Virus record (IMG/VR): IMGVR_UViG_3300009183_000083
Location: 5,810-69,809 of that record
Source: a virus
Strand: one strand, 5' to 3'
Length of the DNA: 64,000 nucleotides
Part shown: positions 1,021-11,011 of the stretch, one piece after another
Position numbering within the stretch: the stretch's first letter is position 1
Layout of the letters: each line of letters opens with the position of its first letter
The notes under the pieces: model-generated
Databases searched by the model: none
What the model saw: only the letters and a program-made list of their open reading frames with translations
What the model was told of the DNA's origin: nothing
Program-made: the position numbers and the translations under genes

Positions 1021-1180
1021 CCCCATTTCTCGCCTCCGGGAAGCTTCTCCGTCAATAGACTCGCTTGTCCACATATCACGAAGCGTGATCAGCGCTTATG
1101 CCAAGGTGGATTTAAAAGGTCTGGCACATTAAAGCTTTTAACCTTATCGCTATCTACGTCTTCGGAGACGAGAAATGGAG
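1021..1180 (-). ncRNA. structured RNA: long closing stem around a pistol-ribozyme-like fold
   Basis: CTCCATTTCTCGTCTCCG pairs with CGGAGGCGAGAAATGGGG; inside are P1 AAGGT/ACCTT, a TTAAA linker, TCCAC/GTGGA, pseudoknot TGTGCCAG/TTGGCATA, GCG and ATCAC/GTGAT. Confidence 0.55.
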
Positions 1181-5230: not shown

Positions 5231-5737
5231 ATGCATGACAACTCACCACAGCCTGAACAGGCTCATCCATACATTTTGCTTCCCAATAAGCTCGCTAAAG
5301 CTACACCTCAGCAATGGGCGCAAATGCAAGCCTTAGCCGAAGCTGGTGTCCCATACCCAGAAATCGCAGCAGACTTCCCTGTAGGCGTTGACTCCATTCG
5401 CAAACGCTCAACCGAACGCCAATGGGTTACCCCCGCTCGTCTCCTCAAGGCAGCTAAGGGACAGCTCTCCGCAGACGATCCTGCAACTCTTGTAGCTAAT
5501 CTTTGGAAGGAACGAGGCGAACAATCAAGGGAGGACATCTACCAAGGCGCTCACAAGGCTTTACAACGCTTCTTCGCCTTAGCTCCTGTCCCTCAATCAT
5601 TTAACGAAGCAGCAACCGCCGCTAAATTACTGAAAGAGGCTATAACTCCCGTATCTCTTAACGAAAACAACTCAAACCTCTCAGTAACTATCTTAGCTAA
5701 CTCAGGTTTCTGTCCCAAACCCGCTATTGACGTTTAG
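5231..5737 (+). CDS. HTH protein, candidate terminase small subunit
   Basis: N-terminal W..M..L.EAG.PY.EIAADF.V..DSIRKR...QW HTH and helical body; TTGACT-like -35 at 5196. Confidence 0.55.
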   Translation: MHDNSPQPEQAHPYILLPNKLAKATPQQWAQMQALAEAGVPYPEIAADFPVGVDSIRKRSTERQWVTPARLLKAAKGQLSADDPATLVANLWKERGEQSREDIYQGAHKALQRFFALAPVPQSFNEAATAAKLLKEAITPVSLNENNSNLSVTILANSGFCPKPAIDV

Positions 5738-6151
5738 CCAATCTCTAATTTGACAAACCTCTAATCTACACCCAACCCCAATATGCACCCCAAATGCCAC
5801 CCACTAGTACCCACTTGTCTTTCCCATGTGAAGAACAAATCGAATAACTAGGGGGGTATTAGGGGGGATTGGGTTAGAGTTTGTAAAGAAAAATCGCAAT
5901 AAAGTTATAATTAGATGTAACTTGTTTGGATTTAGGTTGTTAAGAGAGTGAATTATTAACTACTAACAAGTGATGATAACCCGAAGGGTTACCTGTTAGC
6001 AGATAAAGTTCAAAAAGCCCGCCTCCTTTAGGCCCAGGCATGATTGATAAATGTAAAAAGCAAGGGGTTTATTAAGTGGAATAAGGAAGGGAGTTAACCC
6101 CCACCCCTAAGCCCACCGCTGGGTGACGGTGAGCTATGGGGTAGTGTTAAT

Positions 6152-6328
6152 CTAGGTTGGTTTGTAATGTTTAAAGAGATGATCGTAAGACACCTCTATA
6201 AACTTTCCGAATGGGAATCGAATGGTAGCCTTGTCTCGGCTAAGGTGGGCAATGTACCCCGATCCCCCAGCAATTCTGGAGACACGATATCCTACTTTGA
6301 TGTTTCTCCATTGTTTTGGAGTGATCAT
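6152..6328 (-). CDS. small SH3/KOW-like protein (58 aa)
   Basis: translated by hand: MITPKQWRNIKVGYRV...G.G.I...ATIRF; ATGA overlap with the upstream gene. Confidence 0.55.
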   Translation of the reverse strand: MITPKQWRNIKVGYRVSRIAGGSGYIAHLSRDKATIRFPFGKFIEVSYDHLFKHYKPT

Positions 6329-6483
6329 GGAAAGAAAGTCCTTTCAATAGTCGTGCCATCTCCTCGCATTCCTGTGTCAGCCCACGCCATAAGGCGCAGA
6401 GCTGCGATTATGGCTGCTGCAAACAAGCAGAGCCATATGATTTTGAGCATAACCTGCCACAGTTCATACATAACTTCTTTCAT
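6325..6483 (-). CDS. small membrane protein (52 aa)
   Basis: translated by hand: MKEVMYELWQVMLKIIWLCLFAAAIIAALRLMAW... Confidence 0.55.
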   Translation of the reverse strand: MKEVMYELWQVMLKIIWLCLFAAAIIAALRLMAWADTGMRGDGTTIERTFFP

Positions 6484-6527
6484 ATCTTAAAAGCCAGCGT
6501 TGGTTCACGGCTGGTGCGTGTCATCAG

Positions 6528-6585
6528 AATCCCCGATGAGCCGGGCTAGCGCCCTGAGTTGCCCCAGAGCGCCCGGTGAGGGATT
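6528..6585 (-). repeat. bulged stem-loop, copy 1
   Basis: AATCCC-TC-[stem]-CATC-GGGGATT immediately after a stop codon. Confidence 0.6.
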
Positions 6586-6828
6586 TTATACTACCTCTAG
6601 TTCCATGTAGGACACCGCGATTTTGGTGCCTTTGGTCTTGAATGAGAAGAAGCGCTGAGTGCCATCCTCGTCGTGCTTGGCAAGCATCGGGCAAGCCTTA
6701 ATGTTAAGGTCAGGCTCCCAGCCTTCCAGTTTCAGTTCTTTCCATACGGCCGCCGCCGCGTCGCGCCCCATGTGTTTGGTGATGGACTTAGTGGCGATGT
6801 GCTTGGCGATTGTGTTTTTTGTTGTCAT
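6586..6828 (-). CDS. hypothetical early protein
   Basis: 80-aa ORF with ACACAACT-ATG leader. Confidence 0.7.
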   Translation of the reverse strand: MTTKNTIAKHIATKSITKHMGRDAAAAVWKELKLEGWEPDLNIKACPMLAKHDEDGTQRFFSFKTKGTKIAVSYMELEVV

Positions 6829-6880
6829 AGTTGTGTATTCTAAATCGGGCGGTGTAGCCCTTGTTCATCATCGTGCAGCG

Positions 6881-6940
6881 ATTTCCCCGATGGGCTCAGG
6901 ACTTACGCATGGTCTAGCCATGCTGCCCGAGCGAGGGATT
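6881..6940 (-). repeat. bulged stem-loop, copy 2
   Basis: AATCCC-TC-GCTCGG...CTGAGC-CCATC-GGGGAAAT immediately after a stop codon. Confidence 0.6.
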
Positions 6941-6941
6941 A

Positions 6942-7151
6942 CTAACCTTTGGCGAATGTCAGCATGTAGCTCCCATCTGCCTGCATCTTCTCCTCTTGGA
7001 GAAGAGATCCAACCGCAATGAATCCTTTGGCTTCATCTGGCAAGCTGTAGCAAGGATTACCATTCCAAACAGGCATTGTCCTGCCATCGTCCAGAACAAT
7101 GCCATAAACGTGTTCATCAAAATCTTTGATAATGTTTACAATCTTAGTCAT
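6942..7151 (-). CDS. hypothetical early protein (start reassigned to MTKIV)
   Basis: the upstream part of the 6942-7256 ORF is structured RNA; the ATG at 7151 has an A/C-rich leader. Confidence 0.65.
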   Translation of the reverse strand: MTKIVNIIKDFDEHVYGIVLDDGRTMPVWNGNPCYSLPDEAKGFIAVGSLLQEEKMQADGSYMLTFAKG

Positions 7152-7257
7152 ATTCGTGTGTCTTTCTATTCGTCTGCACTCCCCGGCAGGATTCTGGGTT
7201 GGGCAGCAAGAGCGCTGCCAAAGCAGTTGGTTTAGTCCAACTAAAGACACAGACATG

Positions 7258-7316
7258 AAACACCACTCTGCATTTACACGGGCTTGTGACCGTCATTGGC
7301 TGCATTAGTGGCTGTT
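7258..7316 (-). ncRNA. twister self-cleaving ribozyme (type P1)
   Basis: CAC-UAA-UGCA-GCC-AAU-GACGG-UCAC-AA-GCC-CGU-GUAAA-UGCA-GAGUG-GUG aligns with the twister consensus: P1 CAC/GUG, P2 UGCA/UGCA, pseudoknot CAC/GUG; predicted cut between U7307 and A7306. Confidence 0.9.
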
Positions 7317-7342
7317 GATGACCCGGTCAGCTCCGGGGCGAA

Positions 7343-7618
7343 TCAAGACCAGTCGCGCACCGACTCGATGAGCCAGTCTTGATGCTCAGCAAGTTGTTCT
7401 TGCTGTTGTTGCGGAGTCAAGGGATCTTCGTCCTCCATATCGCTATAGTACTCCTCTTGGAGCATCCAGCCGACAAGGAAGGCTTCGAAGGATGCCTCTG
7501 GCATCCCTGTGAATGAGAAGCGCCAGCGCGCTATCGCAACCTTGTGCTCCCATGCCCAATCAGCATAGAAGCACAAAGCTTTCTCACACACAGCGAATGC
7601 ATTTGGATACGTTGTCAT
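7343..7618 (-). CDS. hypothetical early protein
   Basis: 91-aa ORF with acidic C-terminus. Confidence 0.65.
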   Translation of the reverse strand: MTTYPNAFAVCEKALCFYADWAWEHKVAIARWRFSFTGMPEASFEAFLVGWMLQEEYYSDMEDEDPLTPQQQQEQLAEHQDWLIESVRDWS

Positions 7619-7734
7619 GGTCGTGTGCGGGCTTTGACCCGTCTCGCCCTGATTGTTACGCCGGGATCACGCTCGATAGCCTGTCCTTTCGGGGCAGTCG
7701 CCATCTGAGGACCATGACTGATCCAATGTCCTAT

Positions 7735-7775
7735 CTTCCCAGACAGGGCTCAGCGACACGCCGAGCGGTGGGAAG
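7735..7775 (-). repeat. bulged stem-loop, copy 3
   Basis: CTTCCCA-CC-GCTCGGCG...CGCTGAGC-CCTGTC-TGGGAAG. Confidence 0.5.
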
Positions 7776-7786
7776 CCCCTAAGGGG

Positions 7787-7812
7787 AAGCAGTTTAACGA
7801 CCTACTCAGGTC
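7787..7812 (-). ncRNA. small H-type pseudoknot
   Basis: GACC-TGAGTA-GGTC-GTTAAAC-TGCTT; loop GAGTA can pair with TGCTT. Confidence 0.5.
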
Positions 7813-7818
7813 TTTTGA

Positions 7819-8094
7819 TTAACTGTAACGAGCGTTAATCTCTTCAATCCGCTTGCGGCCAGCGGCGAGGAACTCCTCCTCACGCTCAATAGCTGCCCAA
7901 GCCTCAACCTCAAGACGCTTGACATCTTCTGGTCTACTACCTAGCCAACCACATTCAATGGCGTGGTCTAGGCGGCGAGCAGCAGCGTGCGCTTCTTCAC
8001 GAAGCCTGCGCTCCTTCTCTGCTACGCCACTGTTGGCGTAACGACGTGACGCAAGGCTGTCTCCTCCGTATGCGTATCCTGATAGTCTTCTCAT
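7819..8094 (-). CDS. first early gene, hypothetical charged helical protein
   Basis: 91-aa ORF with an ACAC-rich leader. Confidence 0.65.
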   Translation of the reverse strand: MRRLSGYAYGGDSLASRRYANSGVAEKERRLREEAHAAARRLDHAIECGWLGSRPEDVKRLEVEAWAAIEREEEFLAAGRKRIEEINARYS

Positions 8095-8483
8095 AGTAGT
8101 GTGTGTTGTGTGTTGTTCAAGCAGTGTGCTGCGTAGGTGCAGGCACAGTGCAAGGTGGTATAGATCACACTATCAATGAGTACGTACAGGCTGCTGAGGG
8201 GCCACGGGTGGGTCACCTGCTCCCCTACTGCTGCACACCTAGCTGGAGTACAGTATGGGTTCCTCGTGGAATTATTTTTATTTCTTGAAAATAAAACAAA
8301 ACAAAATAAAAAAATAAAAAACAAATAAGATGAGAGGTAAGGTATCGAACAAGAGTCGTATTTTGTGTTGTGGATTATTTTGGGATGGTCATTGTGTTGA
8401 GGTTTGTCCGAGATGTGGGAGGGATTTGTGGGGGATAGGAGTTAAAGGATTGAGTGTTGACAATAAAGTGTTGGGAGTATTAA

Positions 8484-9221
8484 GTGAAGGGCATGGGAAG
8501 CAAAGTGGATTTGACGAAGGTGGCGCCGTGGCCTCCTAAGCCAGTATTGGCACAAAATGTTTCGATGATTAAGAAGCGGTTGTCTGGTAAGGGGAATGCG
8601 CCTGACGCTGGTTCAGAGGAGGAGGATTCGGGGTTTGTTGCGCAGGCGCATGAGAAGGTGAATGATGTTGATTCTATTGTTTCTAATGCTGGGGCAGCGG
8701 CGTCGATTGCTGACAGGGCATTGAAGTATGCGTCGCCTAAGTTAGGGGCTGTTGCAAGTGGGCTAGGAAAGGGGAACCAAGCTCTTTCTTATGCCCGTGC
8801 TGCTATTGATGCTGGTCGGCTATTAACAGACCAAGATCATTGGGAGAACACGCAGGAGGAGGGTGCTGATGGCAGTGTCTCTCCTATTGAGTTTGGAATG
8901 AATGCTGTAGATATAGGACAGCTTCCCACTACGGTTGTTCGCGCTACTGGTATGGTTGGAGGGATCATGGATGCCAACCGAGAGGCTGGAGAGGCATTAG
9001 CGATGAAAGACCAACAAGATAAGTTGATGGGTATTTATCAAAAGAAGAAAGAACGTAATCCATTGACGTATGGTGCAGGAGGCTCATCTGATGTTCCTCC
9101 TGTTGATCCAGAGAGAGAGCGTCAAATTCAAGCTGCAAAAGAAGCCTTTGAGGATCAAAACCTTGAAGGGATGACAATGGAATTGGTTCGTAACATTATC
9201 CGTGGTAATCAGCCAAGTTAA
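8484..9221 (+). CDS. hypothetical protein upstream of terminase
   Basis: 245-aa ORF abutting terL; TTGACA at 8457. Confidence 0.7.
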   Translation: MKGMGSKVDLTKVAPWPPKPVLAQNVSMIKKRLSGKGNAPDAGSEEEDSGFVAQAHEKVNDVDSIVSNAGAAASIADRALKYASPKLGAVASGLGKGNQALSYARAAIDAGRLLTDQDHWENTQEEGADGSVSPIEFGMNAVDIGQLPTTVVRATGMVGGIMDANREAGEALAMKDQQDKLMGIYQKKKERNPLTYGAGGSSDVPPVDPERERQIQAAKEAFEDQNLEGMTMELVRNIIRGNQPS

Positions 9222-9226
9222 GATTT

Positions 9227-11011
9227 ATGATTAAAGATAAAGGGTTTATTGTTGGTGGGATGGAGTTCCCGCATGGAGCAAGCGAGTTGTCTTGTAATTT
9301 GTGGATGTTTTCTCAGGGAGTGAGAAAGGGGGATGGGAGTGAAGTTATGGCAAACGATCGTTTTGTTTTTTTAAAGAAAGCAATTGATTTAGCGTTTAAT
9401 TGTGAAGGAAGTATTCGCACTGTTGTATGGAATCCTTGGACAGAGTTGATATTAAAAGAAATGATTGGGGGGTGGAAAAAGAAGCGGTTTGTTGGTTTTG
9501 CTGGATGTTCTTCTTCAGGCAAGTCTGATGCAGTGGCTCTTTATGGATTGATGGAGTATTGGGCTCGTCCTACCGAGACATTCTTTTTGGTGATGTCTAC
9601 GACTAAGTTGAGTGCTCGTATGCGTGTTTGGAAGTCAATTACGCAGTTGTGGGGGCAAGCAGAAACTCAAGGTTGTCCAGGAAAGTTAATTGATTCAGAC
9701 GGCTACATTAAAGGAATTAATGCTAATGGTAAGTTGTGGCGCAACTCTGGTATTGTCTTGATGGCTGCTGGAACGCAAGATGCAGAGCAGGCTTGCAAGG
9801 ACTTGCTAGGAATTAAAAACCCTAATGTTATTATTGGAGCAGACGAGTTTAATGAGCTTGGAGAGGGAATCCTTAAGACAGCTTATGAAAATATGACCTC
9901 AAATGATAGGTTGACGTTTGCAGGTATGGCTAACCCCGATAAGCTTACTGACCCTTTTGCAAATCTGTGTGAACCAATTAATGGCTGGAAGTCAGTCAAT
10001 GAAAATGAGGAACGTTGGGAGACTAAATATGGGGCGTGTGTGAGACTGAATGCTGAGAAAAGCCCAAGAATTATGTTTCCTGATTTAGTGGATCATAATG
10101 AAAAACACTTGTATCATTGGCAACCAGACCAAGAGTATTGTGATCGGATTGCTGAGAATCGAGGCGGCATTAAAAGCCGAGGTTACTATCGTTTTGTAAA
10201 AGCATTCTGGTGTCCTGATGGGTCGACTAATTCAATTTATTCAGAAGTTGAGTTTATGAACTCAGGAGCATTGGACCAAGATGAACCAGCTTGGGATTGC
10301 GCCCCTATTGTTGTGAGTTCGTTGGACCCCTCATTCAGTCGTGGAGGAGATAGAAGTTTTTGTTGCTTGATGAAAGCTGGATTAGTAAATGGCAAAACTC
10401 ACGCTCATGTTTGTTATGAAACAAGCATTGATGAAGACATGCAGGACAAGAGTGTTGCGCTTACGCATCAAATAGTAAGAGGTTGGAAGACGTTGAGTGA
10501 GGAATGGGGAGTTAAGCCTTTCCGAGCCATTCATGACAATACGGGAGCAGGAACACCGTTTGGTCATGTTGTTGATATGGAATGGTCAACCTCTGTACAA
10601 AAAATAAACTTCCAAGGAAAGAGTTCTGGAAGGACAGTTATATTTAGAAATGAAGACTGTGATTACTTTAATAAAAACTCTGAATTATGGATTCAGCCAA
10701 AAGAATTTTTTCGTGAGGGACAGATTAGTGGCTTATCAAAAGAAACAATGTCCGAGTTAGTTGATCGAGAGTATCACAAAAAAGAAGGTCGGACAATGCG
10801 GGTGGAGGGCAAAGATGAGGCTAAGAAGCGTTTAAAAAAAAGTCCCGATAGAGCTGACGCTTTCTTGCTTTGCATTGAAAAACTCATAACAATAAATATG
10901 TTGAAGAGTGAAGAAGTTAAAAAAGTTTCCAAAACAATAAACAATGGATGGCTTGATTTAGTTCAAAAATTTGGAATAAATACAAATGTTGGAAAAAAAT
11001 TTAAGAGATAG
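9227..11011 (+). CDS. terL: terminase large subunit
   Basis: Walker A AGCSSSGKS, Walker B IIGADEF, GMANP, RNase H-like SLDPSF..GGD and SPDRADA. Confidence 0.92.
   Translation: MIKDKGFIVGGMEFPHGASELSCNLWMFSQGVRKGDGSEVMANDRFVFLKKAIDLAFNCEGSIRTVVWNPWTELILKEMIGGWKKKRFVGFAGCSSSGKSDAVALYGLMEYWARPTETFFLVMSTTKLSARMRVWKSITQLWGQAETQGCPGKLIDSDGYIKGINANGKLWRNSGIVLMAAGTQDAEQACKDLLGIKNPNVIIGADEFNELGEGILKTAYENMTSNDRLTFAGMANPDKLTDPFANLCEPINGWKSVNENEERWETKYGACVRLNAEKSPRIMFPDLVDHNEKHLYHWQPDQEYCDRIAENRGGIKSRGYYRFVKAFWCPDGSTNSIYSEVEFMNSGALDQDEPAWDCAPIVVSSLDPSFSRGGDRSFCCLMKAGLVNGKTHAHVCYETSIDEDMQDKSVALTHQIVRGWKTLSEEWGVKPFRAIHDNTGAGTPFGHVVDMEWSTSVQKINFQGKSSGRTVIFRNEDCDYFNKNSELWIQPKEFFREGQISGLSKETMSELVDREYHKKEGRTMRVEGKDEAKKRLKKSPDRADAFLLCIEKLITINMLKSEEVKKVSKTINNGWLDLVQKFGINTNVGKKFKR

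What the first reader, a model, noticed from the sequence alone, without database searches (positions are those of the whole stretch)
5940..8290. Early operon with a structured RNA module in nearly every spacer: candidate RNA-based processing system
Seen: this visibly GC-richer stretch alternates tiny ORFs with 100-200-nt spacers that fold extensively and start right after stop codons. They are a long hairpin (6094-6150), a pseudoknot plus bulged stem (6493-6585), a bulged stem plus multibranch (6842-6940), a multibranch (7157-7250, closed by GTGTCTTT/AAAGACAC), the twister (7258-7316), and a pseudoknot plus four hairpins (7620-7812). Known: T7 early mRNA is cut at intergenic RNase III stems. 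Inference: the first-expressed transcript is diced by a ribozyme plus host RNase into single-gene mRNAs or stable small RNAs, possibly anti-defence decoys. I know of no description of this combination.
Basis: partly seen in the sequence, partly recalled or inferred. Interest (0 to 1): 0.85.

Follow-up and report, generated by a model that had tools for sequence, protein, structure and literature searches.

The report
Structured-RNA joints between phage gene cassettes
Six small genes of an uncultivated phage are separated by conserved folded RNA pieces: one is a self-cutting twister ribozyme, and three are copies of an uncatalogued pseudoknot that takes the twister's place in related phages, so the message is probably cut or capped at each gene boundary.

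Summary
The operon runs on the minus strand (8094 to 6152). Its spacers are conserved modules, but they do not fold better than shuffled or coding controls.

The twister (7311-7260, minus) is real: 56.2 bits, E 6e-10, below Rfam's cut-off only because an optional stem is missing. It shows compensatory changes against a relative.

Three spacers carry "motif X", a stem-loop/pseudoknot that abuts the stop codon:
- 27 copies in 14 sources, all on the sense strand.
- 99% of cells paired, and 12 of 21 pairs changed on both sides.

In relatives the same leader follows either a twister or X. A gene is gained or lost by a crossover inside X.

A four-way-junction leader (7256-7151) also covaries. No Rfam family matches X or this leader.

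Best reading: a punctuated polycistronic message made of exchangeable RNA joints. Cleavage is inferred, not shown.

Ribozyme-flanked phage genes have been in print since 2011 (PMC3088659). This scan has noted twister arrays in other phages. What is new here is motif X and the leader. "Early" timing, RNase III and decoy roles are untested.

The parts
8095..8280 (-). 5' leader of the operon. It holds a conserved hairpin (about 8154-8118) and a GUGUG...CACAC closing pair next to the start codon.
   Evidence: 85-87% identical in L001 and L026, 72% in L004. RNAalifold on 7 sequences gave 21 pairs, 6 of them with changes on both sides. MFE z is only -0.54.
7819..8094 (-). g1, 91 aa, an orphan ORF.
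   Evidence: ORF list. No Pfam or PHROG family. No tblastn match in the related loci or in GenBank phages.
7727..7776 (-). Motif X, type A, minimal form: a=UCCCA, b=GCUCGGCG/CGCUGAGC with a 3-nt loop, c=CCUGUC, a'=UGGGA, c'=GAUAGG. Small hairpins lie upstream of it (about 7812-7778). A conserved 3' module follows, down to 7619.
   Evidence: CM R2 hit of 45.2 bits, E 7e-07. 69 consecutive bases are identical to L004. Parsed.
7343..7618 (-). g2, 91 aa, a real conserved small protein of unknown function.
   Evidence: Three metagenomic homologues at 92, 81 and 73% identity (A11; found), with a conserved N-terminal ~60 aa. No Pfam or PHROG family.
7322..7337 (-). Hairpin Y (CCCGG-AGCUGA-CCGGG), 5 nt after the g2 stop and upstream of the twister.
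   Evidence: A Y-like hairpin precedes the twister in the window and in L004, and precedes X in L004 and L029.
7260..7311 (-). Minimal type-P1 twister ribozyme with the optional stem replaced by CAAU. The predicted cut lies between 7307 and 7306. The cut position is recalled from knowledge of the family and was not tested.
   Evidence: RF03160 scores 56.2 bits (cut-off 67.2), E 2.8e-11 in 2.8 kb and 6.4e-10 in 64 kb. It is the only twister match in the 69.8-kb genome. There are compensatory changes against the L004 copy.
7151..7256 (-). Leader M2b: a four-way junction made of closing stem GUGUCUUU/AAAGACAC plus three hairpins. It ends 8 nt before the g3 AUG.
   Evidence: CM R3 scores 118.8 bits. 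There are 8 copies in 8 sources. 89.8% of cells are paired, 9 of 24 pairs changed on both sides, and 0 of 500 shuffles reach the observed pairing or the count of pairs changed on both sides. 5 of 6 sequences fold to the same MFE shape.
6942..7151 (-). g3, 69 aa, an orphan ORF.
6865..6941 (-). Motif X, type B: a=UCCCU, b=GCUCGGG/CCUGAGC with a 25-nt extension, c=CAUC, a'=GGGGA, c'=GAUG. It starts 3 nt after the g3 stop. A small GGGC/GCCC hairpin follows, down to 6829.
   Evidence: CM R2 scores 27.3 bits, E 0.0033. Parsed. Gap to the stop codon.
6586..6828 (-). g4, 80 aa, with a weak DUF1651-like match.
   Evidence: Pfam E 0.018, below the cut-off. Homologues at 59-60% aa identity in L004, L007 and L014. 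There a twister, not X, lies just upstream.
6517..6586 (-). Motif X, type B: b=CCGGGC/GCCCGG, c=UCAUC, c'=GAUGA. It starts 2 nt after the g4 stop.
   Evidence: CM R2 scores 25.4 bits, E 0.0084..
6494..6520 (-). g5 leader: a possible H-type pseudoknot, CACG-CA-CCAGC-CGUG-AACCAAC-GCUGG.
   Evidence: The 23-base pattern scanned in viral contigs is identical in L004, L029, L030 and the contigs of L014 and L015. The full element also stands in the window, L026 and L018. It is invariant, so covariation can neither support nor refute the fold.
6152..6483 (-). g5 (52 aa, hydrophobic) and the overlapping g6 (58 aa).
   Evidence: tblastn homologues in L026, L015, L021, L030 and L029.
6101..6144 (-). Operon-terminal bulged hairpin (CCCC..GGGG lower stem, 10-bp upper stem).
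   Evidence: Seen in the MFE fold of the tail, z -4.73, 0 of 150 shuffles as low. The 5900-6542 block that contains it is 82% identical to L026. No covariation test was made.

Best explanation
This is a minus-strand operon of six small phage genes. Each gene boundary is built from exchangeable RNA modules.

Directly after a stop codon comes a 'boundary' module. It is either hairpin Y plus a twister self-cleaving ribozyme, or motif X. X is a long bulged stem-loop whose base (UCCC/GGGA) can also be read as a pseudoknot with a small 3' hairpin.

Next to the following start codon comes a 'leader' module: the four-way junction M2b, a small pseudoknot, or others. Each ends in an unpaired CA-rich stretch before the AUG.

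Likely working:
- The operon is transcribed as one RNA.
- The twister cuts it, which is inferred from family membership.
- X marks the other boundaries as sites where the RNA is cut or its end is protected. This is inferred from X standing in the twister's place in relatives.
- The result is gene-sized messages whose stability and translation are set by their own end structures.

The repeated modules also serve as crossover points through which genes are gained, lost and moved between phages. This last point is shown by comparison with relatives.
For: Twister:
- 56.2 bits, E 6.4e-10 in the whole window.
- Compared with the L004 copy, one P1 pair changes C-G to G-C and one P4 pair changes A-U to G-C.
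- The CAC/GUG pair set replaces the consensus CCC/GGG.
- Relatives carry twisters in the same operon: 3 in L004, one of which passes the cut-off (61.0 vs 37.6 bits), and 1 each in L007, L014, L015 and L018.

Motif X:
- 27 hits at E<=0.05 in 311,931 nt of 29 sources, all on the operon's sense strand.
- 99.0% of 512 cells are paired, 12 of 21 pairs changed on both sides, 0 of 500 shuffles reach this, and slid controls give 24-48% paired.
- One pair is G-U in 23 of 27 copies, so the fold exists only on the sense strand.
- Helix c/c' is at least 5 bp in 21 of 26 distinct copies, against 13% of 550 mismatched copy pairs.

Interchange and cassettes:
- A leader of about 78 nt, almost identical in three phages, follows Y+twister in L004 but X in L030 and L027.
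- In relatives a twister sits upstream of the g4 homologue, where the window has X.
- L026 (terminase 97% identical) lacks g4, and its single X is the 5' half of one window copy joined to the 3' half of the other.
- Spacers are conserved while the genes between them are not.

Leader M2b: 8 copies, 9 of 24 pairs changed on both sides. It precedes unrelated genes.

Precedent: ribozymes flanking variable genes in prophages, with transcript processing proposed (PMC3088659, passages).
Against: - No RNA data. No RNA run was listed, so no processed end has been seen.
- Spacer folding energies are no better than shuffled or coding controls.
- X has few conserved unpaired nucleotides, which is unusual for a catalytic core. 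Its a/a' helix is nearly invariant, so it is only weakly supported by covariation: one pair varies, plus UCCU/AGGA variants in two or three copies.
- The alignments behind searches were fitted to the models' structures, which favours pairing. Helix a/a' was not in the model.
- Many copies are related by descent, so the counts overstate the number of independent events.
- There is only one twister per complete genome.
- A single promoter and a polycistronic transcript are assumed, not shown (one search found no sigma-70-like site on the operon strand).
Confidence: 0.55

Rival explanations
1. Motif X is itself a new class of small self-cleaving ribozyme, functionally equivalent to the twister it replaces.
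For: X and twister occupy the same slot between the same flanks. It has a compact conserved core with a variable peripheral stem: the b extension is 3 to 31 nt. It has a hairpin-loop pseudoknot next to a second hairpin, a layout that recalls pistol (my recollection of that fold). No Rfam family matches it.
Against: Very few conserved unpaired nucleotides. The conserved bases lie mostly in helices. No known ribozyme model scores on it at E<=10. No biochemical data.
Confidence: 0.15
2. X and the terminal hairpins are passive or nuclease-read stem-loops. They would work like T7 RNase III sites or bacterial REP elements, as barriers to 3' exonucleases or cutting sites for a host or phage endonuclease. 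The c/c' hairpin would be an alternative fold.
For: The bulged stem-loop sits right after the stop codon: the gap is 0 nt in 11 of 28 copies and 1-6 nt in 10 of 28. Operon-terminal hairpins in relatives are closed by the same UCCCC/GGGGA base. The T7 and REP precedents are from my own knowledge.
Against: Minimal X copies have only about 8+5 bp, which is short for RNase III. The strong covariation of c/c' (5 of 5 pairs) is not needed for a simple barrier hairpin.
Confidence: 0.3
3. X is a translation-coupled switch. A ribosome stopping at the adjacent stop codon melts helix a/a'. This lets c/c' form, or frees c', and so sets translation of the next gene.
For: The stop codon abuts strand a. a/a' and c/c' compete for a 6-nt loop in type A copies, where only 1 nt lies between a' and c'. 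Leaders pair the region before the AUG.
Against: The next AUG lies 34-244 nt beyond X with varied leaders in between, leaving aside one copy (L021) where an ATG frame was picked 2 nt after X. In 7 of 28 copies X lies 15-47 nt from the stop. The interchange with a twister is not explained.
Confidence: 0.12
4. Each gene is its own transcription unit, as with PeSL cassettes of T4-type phages. X would be a terminator, the leaders would hold promoters, and the conserved modules would matter mainly as DNA recombination sites.
For: Recombination inside X explains the L026 deletion. The cassette-like mosaic is seen. PeSL precedent: PMC2839356 (abstract read).
Against: No sigma-70-like promoter on the operon strand inside the operon. 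The leaders share no common promoter-like motif. X is not followed by a U-run. The G-U pairs and sense-strand-only hits point to RNA, not duplex DNA. The twisters act on RNA.
Confidence: 0.1

Closest known systems
Twister self-cleaving ribozyme, type P1 (Rfam RF03160, clan CL00120)
   Same: The element at 7311-7260 aligns over the whole model, with P1, P2, P4 and the conserved core letters.
   Different: It lacks the optional stem (4 nt instead of a hairpin), so it scores 56.2 bits against a cut-off of 67.2. Activity was not tested.
Clustered ribozymes flanking genes in prophages (hammerheads: Perreault et al. 2011, PMC3088659, passages read; review PMC6765202, passages read)
   Same: Ribozymes lie between small, variable phage genes. 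Processing of long transcripts into gene-length mRNAs is proposed.
   Different: Here only one boundary per genome holds a known ribozyme. The others hold uncatalogued motifs (X, M2b and other leaders).
PeSL regulatory cassettes of T4-type phages (Arbiol et al. 2010, PMC2839356, abstract read)
   Same: Short repeated intergenic modules in a region of small non-essential genes. Recombination between the copies shuffles genes.
   Different: A PeSL is a sigma-70 promoter plus a terminator stem-loop. Here no such promoter was found, and the modules are covarying RNA folds that include a ribozyme.
T7 early-mRNA RNase III sites and bacterial REP elements (from my own knowledge, no call)
   Same: Related bulged stem-loops lie between or after cistrons and shape mRNA ends.
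   Different: X has an extra covarying hairpin whose loop is complementary to the stem base. Minimal copies look too short for RNase III. Cleavage was not tested.
Pistol ribozyme (Rfam RF02679; PMC4604425, abstract start seen in a search listing)
   Same: A hairpin loop pairs with a strand that lies next to a second hairpin. This resemblance is recalled, not tested.
   Different: The order of the strands differs, there is no P2, and the Rfam model gives no hit at E<=10.

Membership tests
Twister ribozyme (RF03160 / CL00120), for 7311-7260 | Stems P1, P2 and P4 in the family's order | tested here: met
   cmscan alignment over model positions 1-68. P2 has 4 of 4 pairs, P4 3 of 3, and P1 3 of 4. 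P1 and P4 each show a compensatory change against the L004 copy.
Twister ribozyme (RF03160 / CL00120), for 7311-7260 | Conserved core letters (UAA at the cut site, GC after P2, GGUC.CAAGCCCG loop, UAAA, GAG.G) | tested here: met
   All are present in the alignment. The two deviating letters (CAC for CCC, GUG for GGG) are complementary to each other. That these form pseudoknot T2 is my recollection of the family.
Twister ribozyme (RF03160 / CL00120), for 7311-7260 | Score at or above Rfam's gathering cut-off | tested here: not met
   56.2 bits against 67.2. The deficit comes from 16 model positions of the optional stem that are deleted. A relative's type-P5 copy passes its cut-off, 61.0 against 37.6.
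Twister ribozyme (RF03160 / CL00120), for 7311-7260 | Site-specific self-cleavage | not testable with these tools
   No RNA reads and no bench assay.
Known small ribozymes (hammerhead, pistol, hatchet, twister-sister, HDV-like), for motif X and leader M2b | Match to the family's covariance model | tested here: not met
   No such family at E<=10 in window 5700-8500 or in L030 2100-5450, which holds six X copies and one M2b. The CUGAUGA in 6536-6530 is followed by a stem and AAC, not GAAA (read from the sequence).
RNase III processing site of the T7 type, for motif X | About two turns of double helix interrupted by an internal loop | tested here: inconclusive
   Long copies reach about 5+8+10 bp. 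Minimal copies (window 7776-7727, L004, L029) have about 5+8 bp with a 3-nt loop. Cleavage was not testable.
PeSL-type regulatory cassette | Sigma-70-like promoter joined to a terminator stem-loop | tested here: not met
   Only 2 promoter-like sites in 5700-8500 (shuffles give a mean of 3.4), none on the operon strand inside the operon. No U-run follows X.
PeSL-type regulatory cassette | Gene gain or loss by recombination between repeated copies | tested here: met
   The L026 hybrid X equals the window's 6941-side 5' half joined to its 6586-side 3' half, with g4 absent.

The most novel reading that the evidence does not exclude
Motif X is a new class of self-cleaving (or otherwise self-processing) RNA that phages use interchangeably with twister ribozymes at gene-cassette boundaries. 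The four-way-junction leader M2b is a second new cis-acting RNA class that loads ribosomes onto the cut message.
Probability: 0.15. Interest if true: 0.85.

Novelty: new variant of a known kind. Interest (0 to 1): 0.6.

Why it matters
What bacterial and phage self-cleaving ribozymes are for is still an open question (PMC6765202, passages read).

This locus offers a compact natural experiment. The same leaders and genes are found behind a twister in one phage and behind an uncatalogued pseudoknot in another. A gene has visibly been gained or lost by a crossover inside that pseudoknot.

If X cleaves or directs cleavage, it is a new processing RNA found by the same guilt-by-association logic that yielded pistol, hatchet and twister-sister. 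If it does not, it shows what else can do the twister's job at a gene boundary.

Either way, four spacers of about 100-200 nt can be tested directly in vitro.

Tried and rejected
- Rfam at gathering cut-offs over the whole window: 0 matches. At E-value thresholds only the twister was credible. The other rows (snoRNA, bxd, miRNA, SCARNA) are chance-level.
- tRNA/tmRNA scan of the window: none, so tRNA punctuation is not in play.
- Folding-energy z-scores do not separate spacers from coding controls. I dropped them as evidence.
- GenBank phages: no match for the 2.5-kb region (blastn), g2, g1 or even the terminase at 1e-20. The tool warns that records near the window may be left out.
- Pattern scans of viral contigs gave few new relatives. 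Searches returned 4, 3 and 5 stretches. One search returned 17 stretches, and only L036 among the 11 new loci is a true X.
They are mostly high-G+C bacteria, and 0 of 120 have the rest of the motif. I treat them as chance.
- Hammerhead reading of CUGAUGA in 6536-6530: rejected, because the letters after stem II are AAC and no stem I or III fits.
- HDV-like and circularly permuted pistol mappings of X: rejected by strand order (my own reasoning from recalled folds).
- MAFFT alignments A3 and A5 of X were out of register at strands a and c'. I did not use them for counts and used model-fitted alignments instead.
- Rows dropped: L028, L033 and L034 (same contigs as L004, L015 and L014) were kept out of the model searches. 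L029 12703-12772 is an X by eye but fell outside E<=0.05.
- With model R1, five weak hits of 14-15 bits looked like noise. One was the reverse strand of a true copy and one lay inside M2b. I excluded them by tightening the threshold.
- Expression: 'no RNA holder listed'.
- Supplements of the papers were not opened. Figure S-type gene maps in PMC3088659 may show arrangements closer to this one than the passages I read.
- Searches behind 'not in print' for X and M2b: Rfam and three full-text searches. None searched for the motif as such, so the claim is only 'not catalogued in Rfam 15'.


Full report
WHAT IS THERE

The window is bases 5810-69809 of a 69,809-nt virus record rated complete. The finding lies just upstream of, and divergent from, the large terminase gene (9227-11011, plus strand). 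The small genes in it run on the minus strand:
- g1 8094-7819
- g2 7618-7343
- g3 7151-6942
- g4 6828-6586
- g5 6483-6325
- g6 6328-6152

They are preceded by a ~186-nt leader and separated by spacers of 200, 191, 113 and 102 nt. G+C is 0.50-0.56 here against about 0.40 in the neighbourhood.

The genes are real at least in part.
- g2 has three metagenomic homologues at 73-92% identity with a conserved N-terminal half.
- g4, g5 and g6 have homologues in related phage contigs.
- None of the six has a Pfam or PHROG family, apart from a sub-threshold DUF1651 match of g4.

IS IT MORE THAN CHANCE?

Not by folding energy. With 150 dinucleotide shuffles, the sense-strand z-scores of the spacers are -0.54, -1.17, -1.61, -1.79 and -2.86. 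Coding controls give -2.44, -4.60, -3.90, -0.66 and -3.95.

The evidence is comparative. I fetched 15 viral and 13 metagenomic loci through the terminase and a few more through DNA patterns.
- Spacer blocks are 85-90% identical to L004, a phage whose terminase is only 65% identical in protein. One block holds 69 consecutive identical bases.
- g4 is 69% identical in DNA.
- g1-g3 have no counterpart in these loci.

So the spacers are better conserved than the genes. They are also richer in G+C than the rest of this genome, which suggests exchange between phages.

THE TWISTER

RF03160 (twister-P1) matches 7311-7260 on the minus strand over the full model. It scores 56.2 bits, with E 2.8e-11 in 2.8 kb and 6.4e-10 in the window. 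It misses the 67.2-bit cut-off because the optional hairpin is replaced by four bases.

Against the L004 copy:
- one P1 pair changes C-G to G-C;
- one P4 pair changes A-U to G-C;
- the two letters that depart from the consensus (CAC for CCC, GUG for GGG) are complementary to each other.

L004 holds three twisters, and its type-P5 copy passes its cut-off. L007, L014, L015 and L018 hold one each. Each of the two complete genomes searched has exactly one, inside this operon.

I take this as a genuine twister. The cut position (7307/7306) is recalled from the family's description.

MOTIF X

Three spacers share one element.
- Strand a (UCCCN) lies right after the stop codon.
- After 1-2 nt comes stem b. 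It is usually GCUCGG../..CUGAGC, also CCGGGC/GCCCGG, GCUGAGG/CCUCAGC, GCUAGAGC/GCUCUAGC and others. Its extension varies from a 3-nt loop to about 30 nt.
- Then come strand c, strand a' (NGGGA, complementary to a) and strand c'.

It can be drawn as a long bulged stem-loop (a/a' closing b), or as that plus a small hairpin c/c' whose loop is a', which makes a pseudoknot.

Two rounds of covariance models found 27 copies at E<=0.05 in 311,931 nt of 29 sources, all on the operon's sense strand. The window's copies are at 7776-7727, 6941-6865 and 6586-6517.

On that alignment:
- 99.0% of 512 cells pair.
- 12 of 21 pairs show changes on both sides.
- No shuffle of 500 reaches the observed values.
- Slid partners give 24-48% pairing.
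- All five c/c' pairs and four of eight b pairs covary.
- One b pair is G-U in 23 of 27 copies, so the fold exists on the sense strand only.

Caveats:
- The alignment was fitted to stems b and c, and many copies are related by descent.
- Helix a/a' was not in the model. It pairs in 97.5% of cells but is almost invariant. Its support is one covarying pair, plus UCCU/AGGA variants in L027 and L032 and a shifted one in L030.

An independent check: the c/c' helix is at least 5 bp in 21 of 26 distinct copies, but in only 13% of 550 pairings of one copy's c with another copy's downstream sequence.

The gap from the preceding open frame's stop to strand a is 0 nt in 11 of 28 copies, 1-6 nt in 10 and 15-47 nt in 7. 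Those frames are stop-to-stop frames of at least 35 codons, not validated genes.

No Rfam model touches X. A pattern for its core found nothing credible in 120 listed bacterial hits.

LEADERS

The 'multibranch' (7256-7151) is a four-way junction closed by GUGUCUUU/AAAGACAC.
- Eight copies in eight sources.
- 89.8% of cells pair, 9 of 24 pairs changed on both sides, and 0 of 500 shuffles reach the observed pairing or the count of pairs changed on both sides.
- Five of six sequences reach the same fold unaided.
- It ends a few bases before the AUG and precedes unrelated genes in different phages.

The g5 leader can form an H-type pseudoknot. It is invariant wherever it occurs, so covariation says nothing about it.

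The 5' leader has a hairpin with several compensatory changes.

Start codons follow an ACACAC-like stretch with no Shine-Dalgarno sequence (read).

WHAT THE ARRANGEMENT SAYS

The modules combine freely.
- An ~78-nt leader that is almost identical in three phages is preceded by hairpin Y plus a twister in L004, but by X in L030 and L027.
- Hairpin Y precedes the twister in the window and L004, and precedes X in L004 and L029.
- Relatives have a twister upstream of the g4 homologue, where the window has X.
- L026, whose terminase is 97% identical, lacks g4. Its single X is the 5' half of the window's upstream copy joined to the 3' half of the downstream copy. The switch lies inside stem b.

Thus X stands in the twister's slot, and the repeated copies are crossover points.

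MECHANISM

Shown:
- the conserved sense-strand folds;
- twister family membership;
- the interchange of X and twister;
- recombination at X.

Inferred:
- one long transcript;
- self-cleavage at the twister;
- cutting or end-capping at X;
- leaders that set translation.

Rivals are a new ribozyme, a nuclease or barrier hairpin, a translation-coupled switch and PeSL-like transcription units. They are weighed in the fields above.

'Early' timing is unproven. No sigma-70-like promoter was found on the operon strand. In a complete relative with terminal repeats, the operon lies about 6 kb from one end and is read toward it.

WHAT IS KNOWN

- Perreault et al. [quoted passage not shown]
- The 2019 review repeats this for twisters and calls the function open (PMC6765202, passages).
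- PeSL cassettes show shuffling at repeated intergenic modules (PMC2839356, abstract).
- Self-cleavage enabling translation is reported for RNA viruses of fungi and plants (PMC13725137, abstract).
- Earlier notes of this scan list many twister arrays in other phage genomes, twisters as cassette joints, and a two-hairpin spacer in twister positions. They are unchecked AI notes, but they show the general pattern is recurrent.

The news here is narrower: motif X and the M2b leader, uncatalogued in Rfam 15, and the direct X-for-twister substitution.

VERDICT

This is a new variant of a known kind. Interest is 0.6.

Noticed in passing
window 2459, 7231, 11339, 15419, 28938, 35724, 38554, 42877, 50333, 54777, 59226: The palindrome TTTAG-N5-CTAAA occurs 11 times against 0.24 expected. 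Four copies end 2-3 nt before an ATG, and two of those directly follow a TAA. One copy lies inside hairpin 1 of the M2b leader. It may be a genome-wide start-proximal signal.
   Followed up: partly
window 7343-7618, 6942-7151, 6152-6483 (minus strand): The coding regions of g2, g3 and g5-g6 have MFE z-scores of -4.6, -3.9 and -3.95, lower than any spacer. This is unexplained. The mRNAs themselves may be structured.
   Followed up: no
window 9227-11008: The large terminase has no tblastn match at 1e-20 among 50,697 GenBank phage records, though the tool may leave out near records. Relatives are found only among uncultivated viral and metagenome contigs.
   Followed up: partly
L036 10674-10747: A full motif X directly after a TAA stop in a phage contig with otherwise different, tightly packed genes. 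It suggests X moves between unrelated phages.
   Followed up: partly
L004 1624-1668, L006, L007, L014, L015 (operon ends): A 45-nt bulged hairpin closed by UCCCC/GGGGA, the same base as motif X's a/a', marks the end of the operon in five relatives.
   Followed up: no
window 1062-1150: Another first-reader note calls this a pistol-like fold. The whole-window Rfam scan at E<=1 lists no pistol match.
   Followed up: partly
L015 1706-1774 and L029 10502-10572: tRNA genes in two relatives (39.7 and 49.3 bits). The L029 one lies just beside the terminase gene. The window itself has none.
   Followed up: no
window 8111-8095, 7631-7619, 7166-7152, 6843-6829 and L030 spacers: Start codons are preceded by an ACACAC-like stretch and no Shine-Dalgarno sequence (read). 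This hints at a host with SD-independent initiation.
   Followed up: no
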